Of a stretch of DNA of 64,000 nt, positions 58,920 to 63,872 are shown one piece after another. The DNA is taken from positions 18,884-82,883 of the forward strand of contig CALMVA010000083.1 of assembly GCA_937873035.1 (NCBI GenBank). Direction: 5' to 3'. Each line of letters begins with the position of its first letter. Position 1 is the stretch's first letter. Under the pieces are notes generated by a model. The model worked only from the letters and a program-made list of their open reading frames with translations. It had not been told where the DNA came from and made no database searches. This stretch comes from an uncultured Sphingomonadaceae bacterium (lineage in GTDB: Bacteria > Pseudomonadota > Alphaproteobacteria > Sphingomonadales > Sphingomonadaceae). Position numbers and translations under genes: made by a program.

Positions 58920-61799
58920 ATGTCTGAATATCTGCCAATTCAGGGCCATTATCATGCCCACCGCCTCACTGCATCAGCAACGGCAGAAGATGCCTTCACG
59001 CGCTCGCTGACTTCGGCGCGGGTTGAAATGAACCCGCATCAGGTCGATGCGGCGTTGTTCGCCCTCAAAGCTCCATACGCAAAGGGCGTATTGCTCGCCG
59101 ATGAAGTTGGACTTGGCAAAACGATTGAGGCGGGCCTCGTCATTTCCCAGAAATGGGCTGAACAGAAAAAGCGAATCCTATTGATCGTGCCGGCTTCGCT
59201 GAGGAAGCAATGGCAACAGGAGTTGTTCGACAAGTTCTCGCTTCGCAGTCACATCCTTGAAGCGCGTACCTATGGCGACTTGAAGAAGAGTGGGCAGGTC
59301 CGGCCTTTCGAGACTGGCGGCGGTATCCTTATCAGTTCCTACGAGTTCGCAGCCCGCAAGGCGGACGAAATTCATGCGATCCGCTGGGACCTCGTTGTAT
59401 TTGACGAAGCCCATCGGCTGCGCAACGTCCACCGTAAGAATACCGCGAAGGGGGCCAAGGCGCTCAAGCAAGCGGTCGATGGCGCGTTCAAAATCTTGTT
59501 GACCGCGACCCCGCTGCAAAACTCGCTGATGGAATTATACGGCATCGTGTCGATGATCGACGATACGCATTTCGGCGGCGAGAACGCTTTCAGGACGCAA
59601 TATGCCGGTGCATCCACCCCGGCTTCGCAGGAAATGCTGCGCGAACGCCTGAACTCGATTTGCCACCGGACCTTGCGCCGTCAGGTGCAGGAAGCGGGGC
59701 ATATCAACTTCCGTCAACGCCATGCCGTCACCTTCAAGTTTGAGCCCTACGATCAGGAGACGACGCTCTACGAGATGCTGTCGGCCTATCTGCAAGATAC
59801 TGATACCATTGCCTATGGTGGCCGGACCAACGCGCTGGTTGTTCTGCAAGCCCGGAAAAGCCTTGGCTCCTCTACTCGCGCAGTCGCCAGCTATCTCGAC
59901 ACATTGCTGCAACGGCTAATCAGCAAGCAGCGCGCTTCGTCCGACATGACGGACGATTTTGAGGATAGTTTCGACGAAGAGCGCGAGGTGCTAGACGATG
60001 ATGATGCGGATGGCAGCGACGAGCCGCCAATTGATCCGGTGAAGCTGGCGGCGGAAATTACGCTGGTCGAGGCAATGCGCGACCTTGCCCAGTCCATCGG
60101 CATCAACGCCAAGGGTGAGAAGCTGGTCCACAACCTCCCCGGCGTTCTGGACGAGATCAAGGGCAAGGGTGGCAAGCGGAAGGCGGTGATTTTCACCGAA
60201 AGCGTGCGGACGCAAAAATATCTGAATCAACTGCTGACCGACAACGGTTACGCAGGCCAGATCGTCCTCATGAACGGCTCAAACAATGACGACGATAGCC
60301 GCAAGGTCTATACCGAGTGGAAGGAGCGCCATGCGGGCACCGACCGGATTTCAGGGTCGAAGACGGCGGACATGAAGGCCGCCATCGTGGAAGCCTTCAA
60401 GAGCGACGACAAGACTATCCTGATCGCCACCGAGAGCGGCGCGGAAGGCATCAACCTGCAATTCTGTTCGCTGCTCATCAACTATGACCTGCCGTGGAAC
60501 CCGCAGCGGGTCGAACAGCGAATCGGTCGATGCCATCGTTACGGGCAGTTGGTCGATGTGACCGTGGTCAACATGCTCAACATGAAGAACCGGGCGGAAG
60601 CCCGCATCCACGAACTTCTCGAACAGAAACTGCACCTGTTCGACGGCGTGTTTGGGTCGAGCGACGAGGTGCTGGGCATCCTCACCGATGGCATCGACTT
60701 TGAGAAGGAAGTTCTGCGGATCATGCAGAAGGTCCGCTCCGACGAACAGGCGGATCGGGAATTTGATGAACTGACCGCCCGCATTCAGGACAGCATCACC
60801 GCCGATCTTGAAGCCGCCCGCGCCAAGGTGCTGGAGAATATGGATGCCGATGTTGTCGCCAAGCTGCATCGCCGCAACGAGGCACTGGCCCAGATCGTGC
60901 CGGAGTTCAAACAGCGCCTGTTGATGCTGGCGAAAGCCGAACTGTCCGACGCCATATTCCCCCAGCCGGACAGCGAGGACTTCTCATGGGACGGCAAGCA
61001 ATGGACAACGAAATGGCCGCTGGCAGACGAAAATGACTGGCAGTTTTTCCGCGCCAACGAAGGGCTTGGCAATGACCTGATCGAGCGGGCCAAGGCGCGT
61101 GCATTGGGCGGCGGGGCGGAAGCGATCACCTTCGATCCCGCTGCATACGCATATGCAGGTCAGCTTGGCGGCGTCGTGGAACTGGCGGGGCAATCCGGCT
61201 GGCTCCGCGCGTTCAAGGCGGTGATGCCCACGCCCGGTTCGGAACGTGAGGAAATCATTGTCGTGGGCGAAACCGATGGCGGCGAAATGGTTTCCCCGAC
61301 CGTCTGCGACAAGATGATGCTGGCCCCCGCCCTGTCCGTGGGACAGGCGGACGACATTCCCGCCGCCCGGCTCTCCCAGCTACAGGATTTCGAGTTTGGC
61401 CACTTCTCCGAACGGATGAAGCAGGACAATTACAAATGGCTGATCGAGGAAGATGAGCGGTTGAATCGCTATGCCCGCGACATGGAAATCGAAATTGAAT
61501 CGCAGATTGCGGCGCTCGACGTCGAGTTGAAGGATTTGCAACGGCAGAAGCTGTCCCCGAGCCTCGGCATGGAGGAAAAGGTGGCGTTGATGCGCGAAGT
61601 CAAAAAGAAGAACGACGCGCGCGATGACCTGAAAATGAGCCAGTTCGAGGTCAAGAAACAGATCGGCAAGGAGATTACCGACAAGCTCGACGCCTTTTCC
61701 GAACTGCTGAACAAGGAGCCACGGCTGGAGGAATTGTTTACGGTGCGCTGGACGGTTTCCCCCGGCGCATTTGCAGCCGGTCAGGCCAAGGCTGCGTGA
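58920..61799 (+). CDS. SNF2/SWI2-family helicase with long C-terminal coiled-coil domain
   Basis: DEVGLGKT, FDEAH, LLTATP, ATESGAEGINLQ, YDLPWNPQRVEQRIGRCHRYGQ. Confidence 0.93.
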   Translation: MSEYLPIQGHYHAHRLTASATAEDAFTRSLTSARVEMNPHQVDAALFALKAPYAKGVLLADEVGLGKTIEAGLVISQKWAEQKKRILLIVPASLRKQWQQELFDKFSLRSHILEARTYGDLKKSGQVRPFETGGGILISSYEFAARKADEIHAIRWDLVVFDEAHRLRNVHRKNTAKGAKALKQAVDGAFKILLTATPLQNSLMELYGIVSMIDDTHFGGENAFRTQYAGASTPASQEMLRERLNSICHRTLRRQVQEAGHINFRQRHAVTFKFEPYDQETTLYEMLSAYLQDTDTIAYGGRTNALVVLQARKSLGSSTRAVASYLDTLLQRLISKQRASSDMTDDFEDSFDEEREVLDDDDADGSDEPPIDPVKLAAEITLVEAMRDLAQSIGINAKGEKLVHNLPGVLDEIKGKGGKRKAVIFTESVRTQKYLNQLLTDNGYAGQIVLMNGSNNDDDSRKVYTEWKERHAGTDRISGSKTADMKAAIVEAFKSDDKTILIATESGAEGINLQFCSLLINYDLPWNPQRVEQRIGRCHRYGQLVDVTVVNMLNMKNRAEARIHELLEQKLHLFDGVFGSSDEVLGILTDGIDFEKEVLRIMQKVRSDEQADREFDELTARIQDSITADLEAARAKVLENMDADVVAKLHRRNEALAQIVPEFKQRLLMLAKAELSDAIFPQPDSEDFSWDGKQWTTKWPLADENDWQFFRANEGLGNDLIERAKARALGGGAEAITFDPAAYAYAGQLGGVVELAGQSGWLRAFKAVMPTPGSEREEIIVVGETDGGEMVSPTVCDKMMLAPALSVGQADDIPAARLSQLQDFEFGHFSERMKQDNYKWLIEEDERLNRYARDMEIEIESQIAALDVELKDLQRQKLSPSLGMEEKVALMREVKKKNDARDDLKMSQFEVKKQIGKEITDKLDAFSELLNKEPRLEELFTVRWTVSPGAFAAGQAKAA

Positions 61800-61803
61800 A
61801 GGC

Positions 61804-63039
61804 ATGTTTCCTGAGTTCGGACAGTCTCCCCTTTGTCTCGAACTCGACCTCGATTCCTACGAAGAATCCTGGACCCATGTGTCGGCCTTTCGCGGACAAA
61901 CCGGCTGGTTGCTTTTGGCGCGCGCCACAATCCAGAGCGAGCACGACATGCTGCGCGCTACCCTGATCGCCGCTTGCGACGAACATGAAAATCCGATTCC
62001 CGCATGGCGCGCGGAGCATCTTGCCCAATGCCGGTGGGATCGCCTCGACCATTGCCACGAGGAGCCGCCCGAAATCCTCGATGACCTGCTGTGCGAGGAA
62101 GAAGGGGCACTTTATGCCCGCTGGCAGCGGGAGATGAACTCCGGCCTCGCTGCGCTCTATGACAATGCCCAACGCGACATTGAATCGCTGGAAGCGAAGG
62201 CCACGGCGCGCACCCGTGAGGTGGATTTGCAGATTGCCGATTTGCGGCGACGGCGGCGCATGGTGGAAGCCTCGGACGAAGCCCGCGCGGCGATAGCCGA
62301 GATTATCGCCGAACTGGAGGCGGAACACGATCAGGCGATTGCCCAGCTTGCCCAACAGCGCGCCGCGCTCCGCCGCCAAGCCGACGCGACCGAGGAAGCC
62401 CTGTGGCAGCGCACCGACGTTCTGATCGAGGTGGAGCCGATTTGCCTCGTCCGATGGCGCGCGAAGGTCAACCGTGGGGCGGATCGCCTCCTGTCCCCAG
62501 AGCATGGCGGATCGGGCGGAATAAGCCTGTTGCGGGTTCATCGGCCCGAAATTGTCGCGCTGGAGCGGCGGCGGGAACAGGAGCGGGCGGAACTCGAACG
62601 CCTTGCCGAAGCGGCGCGAGCAGCCGCGCTGGAGAAACAGGCCGCGATTGCGAAGGTAAAGAAGCCACACCCTGCATCGGACGCCAAGCCACCTAGGGAC
62701 GGCAACAACGACCTGCCCAAGGCATCGCCGTTCCTGCGAAAGTTGGCGGCAACGACAACCGCTGCGCCATCCGCACCGGCTTTTCCCAGCGCACCGTCGC
62801 GCACCCAATTGCCTATGGCTACCAAGGCACCGGCGCTGCCCGTTTATGGCAAGCTCAATATTGAGCGGGACTTGCTGGTGGGCATGTTGGAAGGGCTGGA
62901 GGAAAAGGGGCAGAGGTTCTTTCCCGGCTCCCGCAAATATATCCGCAATCAGGAGGAACGGGCGGAATTGACCAAACAGATTGCCGTTCTCGACGCACGG
63001 ATTGCAGCGGCGGCGCAGTCGGTTAAGGCGGTCGGATGA
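61804..63039 (+). CDS. Uncharacterised protein; N-terminal half paralogous to the helicase C-terminal domain
   Basis: GQTGWL…IADLRRRR…EPICLVRW versus helicase GQSGWL…LKDLQRQK…EELFTVRW, with identical 185-aa spacing. Confidence 0.82.
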   Translation: MFPEFGQSPLCLELDLDSYEESWTHVSAFRGQTGWLLLARATIQSEHDMLRATLIAACDEHENPIPAWRAEHLAQCRWDRLDHCHEEPPEILDDLLCEEEGALYARWQREMNSGLAALYDNAQRDIESLEAKATARTREVDLQIADLRRRRRMVEASDEARAAIAEIIAELEAEHDQAIAQLAQQRAALRRQADATEEALWQRTDVLIEVEPICLVRWRAKVNRGADRLLSPEHGGSGGISLLRVHRPEIVALERRREQERAELERLAEAARAAALEKQAAIAKVKKPHPASDAKPPRDGNNDLPKASPFLRKLAATTTAAPSAPAFPSAPSRTQLPMATKAPALPVYGKLNIERDLLVGMLEGLEEKGQRFFPGSRKYIRNQEERAELTKQIAVLDARIAAAAQSVKAVG

Positions 63040-63776: not shown

Positions 63777-63810
63777 TCGCGGCCCTGCATCGGGCAGCAT
63801 CAAGCCCCGG

Positions 63811-63872
63811 AAAAACAAAAGGACCCCAGGTGTTCCCAGAGTCCCGTTGCCGACCGGGTAAGTCCCAATCCA
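63811..63872 (-). ncRNA. Small RNA convergent with the DUF3800 gene (DUF3800-associated motif candidate)
   Basis: TTGACT-N17-GATATA promoter (63907-63879); terminator GGACUCUGGG-AACA-CCUGGGGUCC-UUUUGUUUUU with three G-U pairs valid only on the minus strand. Confidence 0.65.

What the first reader, a model, noticed from the sequence alone, without database searches (positions are those of the whole stretch)
58920..63872. Candidate undescribed system: SNF2 helicase, helicase-tail paralog, DUF3800 and a convergent sRNA
Seen: three tightly packed genes (4-bp gap, ATGA overlap) in a tRNA-associated island, LexA-boxed, ending face to face with a small RNA; all helicase motifs are intact. Known: SNF2 helicases occur in defence systems (DISARM DrmD, Zorya ZorD, type III R-M neighbourhoods), and DUF3800 has acidic DE and QxxD motifs suggestive of an RNase H-like nuclease. 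No methyltransferase or restriction subunit is present in the window, and I know no named system with this composition. Inference: a translocase, an adaptor and an RNA-controlled nuclease effector.
Basis: partly seen in the sequence, partly recalled or inferred. Interest (0 to 1): 0.82.

Follow-up and report, generated by a model that had tools for sequence, protein, structure and literature searches.

The report
Nuclease-sRNA cassette inside helicase-assisted restriction operon
The three genes are not one new system: a helicase and its paralog belong to a type III restriction-modification operon that continues just past the window, and the DUF3800 nuclease with its small RNA is a separate cassette that often sits inside restriction operons.

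Summary
The genes are packed as described. The SNF2 motifs are intact. Gene 2 is a true paralog of the helicase tail (hhalign 97.8%, E 1e-12). DUF3800 models as an RNase H-like fold. The convergent small RNA is real.

- A type III Mod gene starts 286 nt past the window end, followed by Res.
- In 13 related loci the conserved order is SNF2 – gene 2 – Mod – Res. DUF3800 is present in only one of them.

SNF2 proteins with this tail sit upstream of a DNA methyltransferase on plasmids from five phyla. A Res homolog follows in five of eight of those plasmids. Variable genes (Abi, AIPR, VapC, AAA+DUF4276) lie between SNF2 and Mod.

DUF3800 and a ~65-nt convergent sRNA form an independent cassette. 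The sRNA has its own promoter and a terminator next to the DUF3800 stop codon. A covariance model finds it in 79 of 79 assessable metagenome loci and 34 of 36 viral loci, with strong covariation. About 28% of cassettes lie between hsdS/M and hsdR of type I operons.

The LexA box is a chance match. The function of the cassette is inferred, not shown.

The parts
57859..57932 (+). tRNA-Val(CAC)-like sequence at the left border of the island. Probably a partial or degenerate tRNA (att remnant).
   Evidence: ARAGORN call. Rfam tRNA scores only 22.3 bits against a gathering score of 29. Its 5' end overlaps the stop codon (57866-57868) of the CsgG-like ORF 57032-57868. GC falls from about 0.61 to 0.54-0.56 just downstream.
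58813..58827 (+). GTTCTTTTTTTGTTC, the only LexA-box-like match near the locus. Judged a chance match.
   Evidence: 3 matches in the window against 1.47 expected; 22 of 100 shuffles reach 3. Absent upstream of SNF2 in 10 related loci. The upstream regions cannot be aligned.
58920..61799 (+). SNF2-family ATPase (959 aa), first gene of the SNF2-assisted type III R-M operon. The core resembles DISARM DrmD_b but falls below the family cut-off.
   Evidence: Pfam SNF2-rel_dom and Helicase_C. NCBIfam NF038318 scores 584.6 bits against a cut-off of 950 and matches only model positions 21-639 of 868. PADLOC DrmD 5.8e-175. Closest solved structure by sequence is RapA. Collinear with Mod/Res in all related loci.
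61149..61769 (+). C-terminal tail domain of SNF2 (aa 744-950): beta-sheet plus long coiled-coil hairpin. It is the parent of the gene-2 N-terminal domain.
   Evidence: hhalign 97.8%, E 1.1e-12. The tail HMM hits SNF2 proteins of Salmonella, Klebsiella, Aeromonas, Planctomycetes, Deinococcus and Hymenobacter plasmids at 1e-18 to 1e-45.
61804..63039 (+). Gene 2 (411 aa). The N-terminal domain (aa 18-224, nt 61855-62475) is paralogous to the SNF2 tail, followed by helical segments. This copy lacks the C-terminal GcrA-type HTH that most homologs carry.
   Evidence: 106 homologs, most with PF07750 GcrA. Alignments A1 and A3 show the GcrA block missing here. AlphaFold pLDDT 85, no PDB fold match. 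No Pfam, NCBIfam or PADLOC family. Always sits between SNF2 and Mod. Small family: 90 clusters at E<=1e-30 among 1.84 billion representatives.
63036..63776 (+). DUF3800 protein (246 aa), RNase H-like. It is the protein half of an autonomous DUF3800/sRNA cassette inserted between gene 2 and Mod.
   Evidence: Pfam PF12686 8e-13. More than 3170 homologs at 45-96% identity across phyla. AlphaFold pLDDT 92; best PDB match RNase HII 1eke (probability 1.0, E 1.5e-3), then RNase HI. Absent from 12 of 13 related SNF2-gene2-Mod-Res loci.
63811..63872 (-). Small RNA of about 62 nt, convergent with DUF3800. Hairpin 1 is at 63870-63852 (GAUUGGG/CCCGGUC), the terminator stem-loop at 63845-63820, and the U-run at 63819-63811.
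   Evidence: CM R1 hit 63803-63876(-), the only hit in the window. Found in the same place and strand in 79 of 79 assessable metagenome loci, 34 of 36 viral loci and 8 other loci. 97.1% of cells paired against 81.8% in shuffles; 15 of 18 pairs show compensatory changes. Frequent G-U pairs mean only this strand folds. MFE -30.2 (z -3.0) against -17.3 (z -1.3) for the plus strand. It is the best terminator-like site in the region.
63879..63907 (-). Sigma-70-like promoter of the sRNA: -35 TTGACT (63907-63902), 17-nt spacer, -10 GATATA (63884-63879).
   Evidence: Read directly from the sequence. In 62 of 79 unique homologous upstream regions a match of at least 8 of 12 is present, against 29% of shuffles. 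The -10 ends 1-7 nt before the model start in 69 of 79.
63941..64000 (-). 3' end of a convergent 67-aa DUF2188 gene, cut by the window end (full gene at window-equivalent 63941-64144). It is an extra small insert and not part of the cassette in general.
   Evidence: Gene call and Pfam in L001. PADLOC candidate PDC-S16, 6e-7. No homolog found next to DUF3800 in the 84 metagenome and plasmid loci searched; seen only here and in Hoeflea L021.

Best explanation
The region is the 5' half of a composite defence locus on an integrated element. It contains two separate things.

(1) An SNF2-assisted type III restriction-modification operon. The order is SNF2 ATPase, then gene 2 (a duplicated copy of the SNF2 tail that usually also carries a GcrA-type DNA-binding domain), then Mod, then Res. 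Mod and Res lie 286 nt and about 2 kb beyond the window end. In this family the space between SNF2 and Mod is variable and holds other defence-type genes in other bacteria.

(2) In this lineage that space holds an independent two-part cassette. It consists of an RNase H-like DUF3800 nuclease and a ~65-nt small RNA. The sRNA is transcribed towards DUF3800 from its own promoter and ends at a terminator next to the DUF3800 stop codon. A small DUF2188 gene has also been inserted.

Shown here: the gene order and its conservation, the tail paralogy, the RNase H-like model, the near-universal DUF3800-sRNA linkage with covariation, the promoter and strand of the sRNA, and frequent nesting of the cassette inside type I R-M operons.

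Inferred:
- The SNF2 ATPase acts on DNA together with Mod/Res, and gene 2 binds it through the shared coiled-coil domain.
- The sRNA restrains or partners the DUF3800 nuclease. Its sequence is highly conserved, which points to direct protein binding. It is also necessarily antisense to any DUF3800 read-through transcript.
- The cassette acts as a back-up or addiction module for its host R-M operon, as PrrC does in a type Ic operon.
For: Operon
- Contigs carrying the identical DUF3800 protein show DUF2188(-), Mod (554 aa) and Res (901 aa) directly downstream.
- Mod matches PADLOC MTase_III at 652 bits over its full length; Res matches REase_III at 761 bits.
- All 10 species-level genomes with a gene-2 homolog have SNF2, gene 2 and Mod in collinear order, and Res follows in the 9 whose contig extends far enough. 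The same order, with Res, is found in L024 and in a Sphingopyxis plasmid.
- SNF2 proteins with the same tail lie upstream of a DNA methyltransferase on plasmids of Salmonella, Aeromonas, Roseomonas, Deinococcus, Planctomycetes, Hymenobacter and Klebsiella. Different genes sit in between.

Paralogy.

Cassette
- A 61-nt block after the DUF3800 stop codon is 79-90% identical even where the protein is only 61-72% identical.
- CM R1 finds it in 79 of 79 assessable metagenome loci, 34 of 36 viral loci and 4 of 4 plasmid loci, always on the opposite strand.
- Covariation, promoter, and a median 10-nt gap from the stop codon to the terminator stem.
- Stand-alone copies lie among housekeeping genes.
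- 17 of 61 downstream neighbours are HsdR, and 17 of 62 upstream neighbours are HsdS or HsdM. A Hoeflea type I operon holds the cassette between hsdS and hsdR.

Literature
- DUF3800 genes are known to associate with structured RNAs on either strand, often with terminators (PMC5737381).
- An RNase H-like fold has been proposed for DUF3800 (PMC7736814, PMC10910872).
Against: - No experiment or strand-specific RNA data exist. Only low-depth, undirected metatranscriptome contigs cover 63511-64000.
- Physical interaction of SNF2, gene 2 and Mod/Res is untested.
- This copy of gene 2 lacks the GcrA domain and could be impaired.
- In this lineage the convergent DUF2188/sRNA insert splits the operon, so Mod/Res must use another promoter, which I did not identify.
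- About 70% of cassettes are not next to R-M genes, so a guard role for R-M cannot be general.
- The Foldseek match of DUF3800 to RNase H is weak (TM 0.43-0.46).
- In three plasmid loci (Klebsiella, Planctomycetes, Hymenobacter) a Res homolog was not detected or the locus was cut.
Confidence: 0.65

Rival explanations
1. One reading: SNF2, gene 2 and DUF3800, with the sRNA, form one self-contained three-gene defence system in which a translocase and an adaptor deliver an RNA-controlled nuclease.
For: Tight packing with translational coupling (4-bp gap, ATGA overlap). The same ATGA junction is present in L007. Gene 2 is a tail paralog.
Against: DUF3800 is absent from 12 of 13 related loci that carry SNF2 and gene 2. 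DUF3800 with its sRNA is found in more than 110 loci without SNF2 or gene 2. Mod and Res follow immediately.
Confidence: 0.05
2. The DUF3800/sRNA cassette is a selfish toxin-antitoxin-type addiction module with an RNA antitoxin. It spreads by horizontal transfer and lands in R-M operons and islands by chance or hitch-hiking, with no role in phage defence or in guarding R-M.
For: Stand-alone copies lie among housekeeping genes. The cassette occurs on plasmids, next to integrases or Tn3, and in viral contigs. The protein is 45-65% identical across phyla. The convergent, 3'-abutting RNA architecture resembles 3'-overlapping type I TA pairs such as TxpA/RatA (from my own knowledge).
Against: About 28% lie in one specific slot between hsdS/M and hsdR, which is far more ordered than random landing. 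No toxicity data exist. No PADLOC model matches DUF3800, which argues neither way.
Confidence: 0.2
3. The locus is a fragment or variant of class 1 DISARM, with SNF2 = DrmD and Mod = DrmMI.
For: The best PADLOC and NCBIfam hits of SNF2 are DrmD models.
Against: The score is 584.6 against a cut-off of 950, and only the helicase core matches. The same holds for the other Mod/Res-linked SNF2 proteins. Nothing in the 10 kb downstream matches DrmA, DrmB or DrmC. The partners are a full-length type III Mod and Res.
Confidence: 0.05
4. The 'sRNA' is only the 3' UTR and intrinsic terminator of the convergent DUF2188 gene.
For: It lies 60-130 nt downstream of the DUF2188 stop codon on the same strand and ends in the best terminator of the region.
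Against: The element is present without DUF2188 in every other locus examined. It has its own conserved promoter. It always tracks the DUF3800 stop codon.
Confidence: 0.02

Closest known systems
Type III restriction-modification systems (EcoP15I-type Mod + Res)
   Same: A full-length type III Mod (N6_N4_Mtase; PADLOC MTase_III 652 bits) and Res (ResIII helicase-nuclease; REase_III 761 bits) are adjacent and co-oriented, directly downstream of the window.
   Different: Classical type III systems have two genes. Here an SNF2 ATPase always precedes them, in sphingomonads together with a tail-paralog/GcrA protein, and a variable gene slot separates SNF2 from Mod. I found no description of this arrangement in the searchable literature.
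DISARM class 1 DrmD (SNF2 helicase; NCBIfam NF038318 'DrmD_b')
   Same: The helicase core is the closest named family: 584.6 bits over model positions 21-639. It is also linked to an adenine methyltransferase.
   Different: The score is below the equivalog cut-off of 950. The C-terminal tail is different. No DrmA, DrmB or DrmC is present, and the partner is a type III Res.
DUF3800-associated RNA motifs DUF3800-I to -XI (Weinberg et al. 2017, PMC5737381)
   Same: A conserved structured RNA sits next to a DUF3800 gene. It may lie on the opposite strand and is often followed by an intrinsic terminator. Its function is unknown.
   Different: No Rfam DUF3800 model matches this RNA even at E<=10. 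This RNA is very small (one invariant hairpin plus a terminator), is always convergent, and abuts the stop codon. Whether it equals a motif from that paper that is not in Rfam could not be checked, because the supplement is not held.
BjrC68 (Rfam RF02353), a Bradyrhizobiaceae sRNA
   Same: It is the only Rfam family that hits the element, with the same two-hairpin plus U-run layout. It scores 21-32 bits in the window and in 9 of 20 other loci.
   Different: All hits are below the gathering score of 39. There is no hit in a Bradyrhizobium elkanii plasmid locus where R1 finds the element. Homology is unresolved.
PrrC anticodon nuclease within the EcoprrI type Ic R-M operon (from my own knowledge, not tested here)
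   Same: A latent nuclease gene nested between hsdS and hsdR of an R-M operon. About 28% of DUF3800/sRNA cassettes occupy that slot.
   Different: There is no sequence or fold relationship. DUF3800 is RNase H-like and comes with an sRNA. Latency and activation are hypothetical here.

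Membership tests
Type III restriction-modification system | Adjacent Mod (N6/N4 methyltransferase of type III kind) and Res (SF2 helicase-like ATPase plus nuclease) genes | tested here: met
   Mod matches PDLC03636 at 652 bits over residues 1-536. Res matches PDLC03648 at 761 bits. They lie at L001 11251-12915 and 12920-15625, which is window-equivalent 64286-68660 and therefore outside the window.
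DISARM class 1 | DrmD equivalog (NF038318 or NF038317 above cut-off) | tested here: not met
   584.6 bits against a cut-off of 950, and 270 against 610. Only the helicase core aligns.
DISARM class 1 | DrmA and DrmB (DUF1998), with or without DrmC (PLD), in the same cluster | tested here: not met
   No such Pfam, PADLOC or NCBIfam hits among the genes in the 10 kb downstream. Upstream genes are housekeeping (LepA, CsgG).
Zorya (ZorD) | ZorD equivalog together with ZorA/ZorB | tested here: not met
   NF041790 scores 76 bits against a cut-off of 1500. No ZorA/B-like genes are nearby.
Pfam DUF3800 (PF12686) | Match above the gathering score, with the N-terminal DE and C-terminal QxxD motifs | tested here: met
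   49.7 bits against a cut-off of 21. D15, E16, Q209 and D212 are invariant in 36 homologs.
RNase H-like fold | Structural similarity to RNase H enzymes | tested here: inconclusive
   The AlphaFold model has pLDDT 92. The top PDB hits are all RNase HII or HI, but they are weak (E 1.5e-3, TM 0.43-0.46). This agrees with PMC7736814 and PMC10910872. Catalysis was not tested.
DUF3800-associated structured RNAs | Conserved RNA structure with covariation, consistently adjacent to DUF3800 genes | tested here: met
   79 of 79 assessable metagenome loci, 34 of 36 viral loci and 8 other loci. 15 of 18 pairs show compensatory changes, with 0 of 500 shuffles as high. Caveat: the alignment was fitted to the model.
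Rfam DUF3800-I..X / BjrC68 | Score at or above the family gathering threshold | tested here: not met
   No DUF3800 model hit at E<=10. BjrC68 scores 21-32 bits against a gathering score of 39. Nothing reaches gathering score in 26 loci.
LexA (SOS) regulon | LexA box upstream, more frequent than chance and conserved in orthologous loci | tested here: not met
Toxin-antitoxin with RNA antitoxin (type I or type III) | Toxicity of the protein, neutralised by the RNA | not testable with these tools
   Only the architecture is known: convergent, 3'-abutting, with its own promoter.

The most novel reading that the evidence does not exclude
Two linked novelties remain possible.

(a) SNF2 – [variable slot] – Mod – Res is an unrecognised, phylum-spanning class of three-component type III-like R-M system. 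In it an SNF2 motor works with Mod/Res, and the internal slot recruits second-line defence genes.

(b) The DUF3800/sRNA cassette is a new RNA-governed RNase H-like effector that guards R-M operons. The sRNA would hold it inactive, and it would be released when phage anti-restriction factors or transcription shut-off disable the host R-M. That would give a first function to the DUF3800-associated RNAs, which have been unexplained since 2017.
Probability: 0.3. Interest if true: 0.8.

Novelty: new variant of a known kind. Interest (0 to 1): 0.6.

Why it matters
The finding replaces a speculative three-gene system with two testable units.

First, DUF3800 genes have been known since 2017 to sit beside many unrelated structured RNAs, with no proposed function. 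This subfamily offers an unusually simple case: one invariant hairpin plus a terminator, a fixed geometry, and near-100% linkage. It occurs in culturable hosts such as S. meliloti pSymA, Methylorubrum and Bradyrhizobium elkanii plasmids. That makes the protein-RNA relationship directly testable.

Second, placement of the cassette between hsdS/M and hsdR in about 28% of cases, and between SNF2/gene 2 and Mod here, suggests another example of defence genes nested inside R-M operons.

Third, the SNF2-linked type III operon is widespread on plasmids, including those of Salmonella and Aeromonas, yet it is annotated only as 'SNF2-related protein'. Defence-finder tools would split it into 'type III R-M' plus an orphan DrmD-like gene.

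Tried and rejected
- LexA control: rejected.
- DISARM membership: rejected.
- sRNA as merely the DUF2188 terminator: rejected.
- DUF2188 as a regular partner of DUF3800: rejected. No homolog was found in 84 other loci.
- DUF5818 (58381-58665) as part of the system: it is not found in related loci.
- PDB fold search for gene 2: only coiled-coil noise, best E 0.06.
- BLASTP of the tail against gene 2: not significant alone. Profile methods were needed.
- Homolog search with the tail profile returned only 18 mostly fragmentary proteins because of the word-index limit. Two looked-up contexts, P0238 and P0244, were uninformative.
- Rfam at gathering score on 26 loci: nothing.
- RNA evidence: only low-depth, undirected wastewater metatranscriptome contigs.
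- The supplement of Weinberg 2017 is not held, so identity with DUF3800-II to -XI could only be tested through Rfam.
- Literature searches for an SNF2-linked type III R-M or for DUF4391 found no description.
- The single-sequence MFE fold of the sRNA pairs the 3' arm of hairpin 1 with bases beyond the U-run. I prefer the comparative structure.

Full report
**1. What is in the window**

ORF listing and direct reading confirm three co-oriented genes.
- SNF2: 58920-61799, 959 aa from the ATG.
- Gene 2: 61804-63039, 411 aa.
- DUF3800: 63036-63776, 246 aa.

They are separated by a 4-bp gap and an ATGA overlap.

The first protein has SNF2-rel_dom and Helicase_C domains. The canonical motifs DEVGLGKT, DEAH, TATPLQN and QRIGRCHRYGQ are visible in the translation. 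Its best named relatives are the DISARM DrmD models. The match covers only the helicase core: NF038318 scores 584.6 bits against a cut-off of 950, over model positions 21-639 of 868. The closest solved structure by sequence is RapA.

Gene 2 matches no Pfam, NCBIfam or PADLOC family. The third protein is a clear DUF3800.

**2. Beyond the window**

I looked up contigs that encode the identical DUF3800 protein. This returned several wastewater and activated-sludge contigs that are identical to the window over their shared part. Directly downstream they carry four things.
- A convergent 67-aa DUF2188 gene, at window-equivalent 63941-64144.
- A 554-aa N6_N4 methyltransferase, starting at 64286.
- A 901-aa ResIII protein, starting at 65955.
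- Unknown genes, ParD and a VapE-like gene.

PADLOC scores the methyltransferase as a full-length type III Mod (652 bits) and the helicase as a type III Res (761 bits).

**3. Which genes travel together**

Gene 2 has 106 homologs, almost all from sphingomonads. Most are 450-490 aa and carry a C-terminal GcrA-type HTH (PF07750). The window copy lacks this domain.

A scan of one genome per species found 10 loci with a gene-2 homolog. In all ten the order is SNF2, gene 2, Mod. Res follows in the nine whose contig extends far enough. DUF3800 is present in only one, Sphingomonas psychrolutea L007. The same four-gene order recurs in metagenome contig L024 and on a Sphingopyxis macrogoltabida plasmid.

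The family is small. There are 90 clusters at E<=1e-30 among 1.84 billion representatives.

The conserved unit is therefore SNF2 – gene 2 – Mod – Res. DUF3800 is an insertion.

**4. The tail paralogy is real**

BLASTP gave only a hint. Three further results settle it.
- A profile of eleven SNF2 tails against the gene-2 profile gives 97.8% probability and E 1.1e-12 over 203 columns. The aligned regions are SNF2 aa 744-950 and gene 2 aa 18-224, and they include the GQ(S/T)GWL and (V/L)RW strands that flank a long coiled coil.
- A plain hmmsearch with the gene-2 profile hits SNF2 tails in three independent loci (3e-16 to 7e-6). The tail profile hits a gene-2 homolog at 3e-9.
- The AlphaFold model of gene 2 (pLDDT 85) shows a beta-sheet with an inserted ~110-residue coiled-coil hairpin. 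It has no PDB counterpart.

A shared coiled-coil domain makes heterodimerisation with the helicase tail a reasonable inference. This was not tested.

**5. A wider family: SNF2-linked type III R-M with a variable slot**

A tblastn search of the SNF2 protein against 72,556 plasmids found 53 records. In 44 of them the match covers most of the protein. I inspected eight contexts.

| Host | Gene order |
|---|---|
| Sphingopyxis | SNF2 – gene-2 homolog – Mod – Res |
| Salmonella | HTH – SNF2 – IS256 – Abi – hypothetical – Mod – Res |
| Aeromonas | WYL – SNF2 – AAA ATPase – DUF4276 – Mod – IS – Res |
| Deinococcus | SNF2 – AIPR – HTH – hypothetical – VapC – Mod – Res |
| Roseomonas | SNF2 – 1-kb unannotated gap – Mod – Res |
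| Planctomycetes | HTH – SNF2 – hypothetical – AAA-like – methyltransferase – hypothetical – Res |
| Hymenobacter | SNF2 – hypothetical – AAA ATPase – hypothetical – methyltransferase (locus cut) |
| Klebsiella | HTH – SNF2 – methyltransferase – … – DEAD/DEAH helicase |

The tail HMM hits all of these SNF2 proteins (1e-18 to 1e-113). Mod and Res homology to the window lineage is clear in Sphingopyxis, Salmonella, Aeromonas, Roseomonas and Deinococcus.

The four SNF2 proteins I scanned (Klebsiella, Salmonella, Aeromonas, Deinococcus) score 650-700 bits on DrmD_b, below the cut-off and over the core only. They form a sister group of DrmD with their own tail.

PGAP labels all of them 'SNF2-related protein'. 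I found no paper describing this arrangement. From memory, comparative-genomics reviews note that SWI2/SNF2 ATPases occur in bacterial R-M contexts. That is a lead, not a test.

**6. The DUF3800/sRNA cassette**

The DUF3800 protein has more than 3170 homologs at 45-96% identity, in Alpha-, Beta- and Gammaproteobacteria, Gemmatimonadota and Holophaga. Close homologs occur in two kinds of place.
- Alone among housekeeping genes.
- In a Hoeflea genome, between hsdS and hsdR of a type I operon.

A blastn search of the spacer after DUF3800 showed that a 61-nt block, window 63811-63871, recurs 10-20 nt after the DUF3800 stop codon in every such locus. It is 79-90% identical even where the proteins are only 61-72% identical.

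On the minus strand the alignment shows the following elements, in 5' to 3' order.
1. A TTGAC-like -35, a 17-nt spacer and a TATA-like -10.
2. An invariant hairpin, GGAUUGGG-loop-CCCGGUCGGC.
3. A GC-rich terminator hairpin.
4. A U-run.

I built a covariance model from five sequences (R1). Its results were as follows.
- One hit in the 64-kb window.
- Hits on the opposite strand directly after the DUF3800 gene in 79 of 79 assessable metagenome loci, where protein identity is 45-66%.
- Hits in 4 of 4 plasmid loci: Bradyrhizobium elkanii, Methylobacterium, S. meliloti pSymA and Paraburkholderia.
- Hits in 34 of 36 viral or proviral contigs, down to about 40% protein identity.

Several measurements support a real, strand-specific RNA.
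- 97.1% of cells pair, against 81.8% in shuffles (0 of 500 as high). 15 of 18 pairs show compensatory changes. Register-shifted controls give 25-63%. Caveat: the alignment was fitted to the model.
- G-U pairs are abundant, so only the minus-strand transcript can form the structure. The single-sequence fold agrees: -30.2 kcal/mol (z -3.0) against -17.3 (z -1.3) for the plus strand.
- A promoter-like match of at least 8 of 12 is present in 62 of 79 unique upstream regions, against 29% of shuffles. The -10 ends 1-7 nt before the model start in 69 of 79.
- The terminator stem begins a median of 10 nt from the stop codon (44 nt in the window). The two genes therefore end tail to tail.

The DUF3800 AlphaFold model (pLDDT 92) has RNase HII (1eke) and RNase HI as its top PDB matches. 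These matches are weak. They agree with published proposals (PMC7736814, PMC10910872).

**7. Where the cassette sits**

I took the largest ORFs flanking the cassette in the 80 metagenome loci. Of 61 downstream neighbours, 17 are HsdR. Of 62 upstream neighbours, 10 are HsdS and 7 are HsdM. The rest are diverse.

About 28% of cassettes therefore lie between the S or M gene and the R gene of a type I R-M operon. From my own knowledge, that is the position of prrC in the EcoprrI locus. In the window and in L007 the cassette occupies the equivalent slot of a type III operon, and it is translationally coupled to gene 2 by the same ATGA junction.

DUF2188 matches a PADLOC candidate family, PDC-S16. 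It accompanies the cassette only here and in Hoeflea.

**8. What is known already**

Weinberg et al. (PMC5737381) reported eleven unrelated RNA motifs associated with DUF3800 genes. These lie on either strand, several have terminators, and no function is known. The present RNA fits that description.

No Rfam DUF3800 model matches it. The only Rfam family that hits is BjrC68, repeatedly but below threshold: 21-32 bits against a gathering score of 39. It does not hit in a Bradyrhizobium plasmid locus where R1 does.

I therefore treat this RNA as a new or uncatalogued member of a known kind.

**9. Claims that fail**

- The LexA box is a single low-complexity match at chance frequency, and it is not conserved.
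- The tRNA-Val call overlaps the preceding ORF and is weak in Rfam. It looks like a partial tRNA at an island border.
- Expression data are inconclusive. One metatranscriptome holds only 63511-64000 of the locus, at depth 2-4 and without strand information.

**10. Mechanism, with levels of support**

Shown: the architecture, the co-occurrence patterns, the paralogy, the RNA structure with its promoter and strand, and the nesting in R-M operons.

Inferred:
- The SNF2 ATPase works with Mod/Res on DNA. Gene 2 docks on its tail and, in most lineages, contributes a GcrA-type DNA-binding domain. GcrA is a methylation-sensitive DNA binder in Caulobacter (from my own knowledge).
- The sRNA either binds DUF3800 or pairs with the read-through 3' end of its mRNA. 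Binding is favoured because the hairpin sequence is invariant across phyla. Pairing is unavoidable if both strands are transcribed. Either way the nuclease would be kept in check.
- The cassette would then serve as an addiction or back-up module for the R-M operon that hosts it.

I give about 0.85 to the composite architecture and about 0.4 to the RNA-restrains-nuclease mechanism. Overall confidence is 0.65.

**11. Verdict**

The proposed three-gene system is not a unit.

What is there is a new variant of known kinds. It is a type III R-M operon with an accessory SNF2 motor, carrying a DUF3800-plus-RNA cassette. The testable DUF3800-sRNA pair and the recurrent 'R-M operon as host for other defence genes' pattern are the points of interest.

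Noticed in passing
window 57859-57932: The ARAGORN tRNA-Val(CAC) call overlaps the stop codon of the CsgG-like ORF (57032-57868) and scores below Rfam's tRNA threshold. By eye only the anticodon arm, T arm and 3' acceptor look like a tRNA. It may be an att-site remnant marking the island border. No second copy was found within 10 kb downstream.
   Followed up: partly
L001 15714-18569 (window-equivalent 68749-71604); L009 15842-18761: Three of the four unknown genes after Res (188, 382 and 265 aa; the 79-aa gene had no match) recur next to the homologous Res in Sphingopyxis L009, in a different order and orientation. They have no Pfam, PADLOC or NCBIfam family. They may form another accessory module.
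   Followed up: no
L028 10853-12621 (Aeromonas media pE31A); L032 10880-13578 (Deinococcus); L026 10830-11567 (Salmonella): The slot between SNF2 and Mod holds AAA ATPase + DUF4276 (which resembles PARIS by annotation), AIPR + HTH + VapC, or an Abi-family gene. This suggests a hotspot for nested defence genes inside this operon type.
   Followed up: partly
window 63941-64000 (gene continues to 64144 in L001): The 67-aa DUF2188 protein matches PADLOC candidate family PDC-S16 (6e-7). A DUF2188 gene also sits directly before the DUF3800 gene inside the Hoeflea type I R-M operon (L021 5762-5992).
   Followed up: partly
window 56784-56845 (+): Rfam AsrC (antisense RNA of rseC) partial hit, 30.8 bits against a gathering score of 111. 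It lies inside the lepA coding region (55043-56917, minus strand). It is most likely an echo of conserved coding sequence, not an RNA gene.
   Followed up: no
window 13242-13256 and 13605-13619: The only two other GTTC-N7-GTTC matches in the window lie 363 bp apart, within or near the end of a 797-aa ORF (11205-13598). They were not examined for SOS relevance.
   Followed up: no
window 58573, 59464, 62620, 63442: Metagenome and metatranscriptome contigs match the window up to these points and then continue with unrelated sequence (loose ends). This suggests mosaic variants of the island in related strains.
   Followed up: no
L021 3495-4385 (Hoeflea): A second, 296-aa DUF3800 gene of another subfamily lies between hsdM and hsdS of the same type I operon. 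It has no R1-type RNA next to it and may have a different partner RNA.
   Followed up: no
window 61804-63039 versus homologs P0003, P0007 and others: The window's gene 2, its 93%-identical relative P0002 and P0016 lack the C-terminal GcrA-type HTH found in most family members. This looks like domain loss within an otherwise conserved operon.
   Followed up: partly
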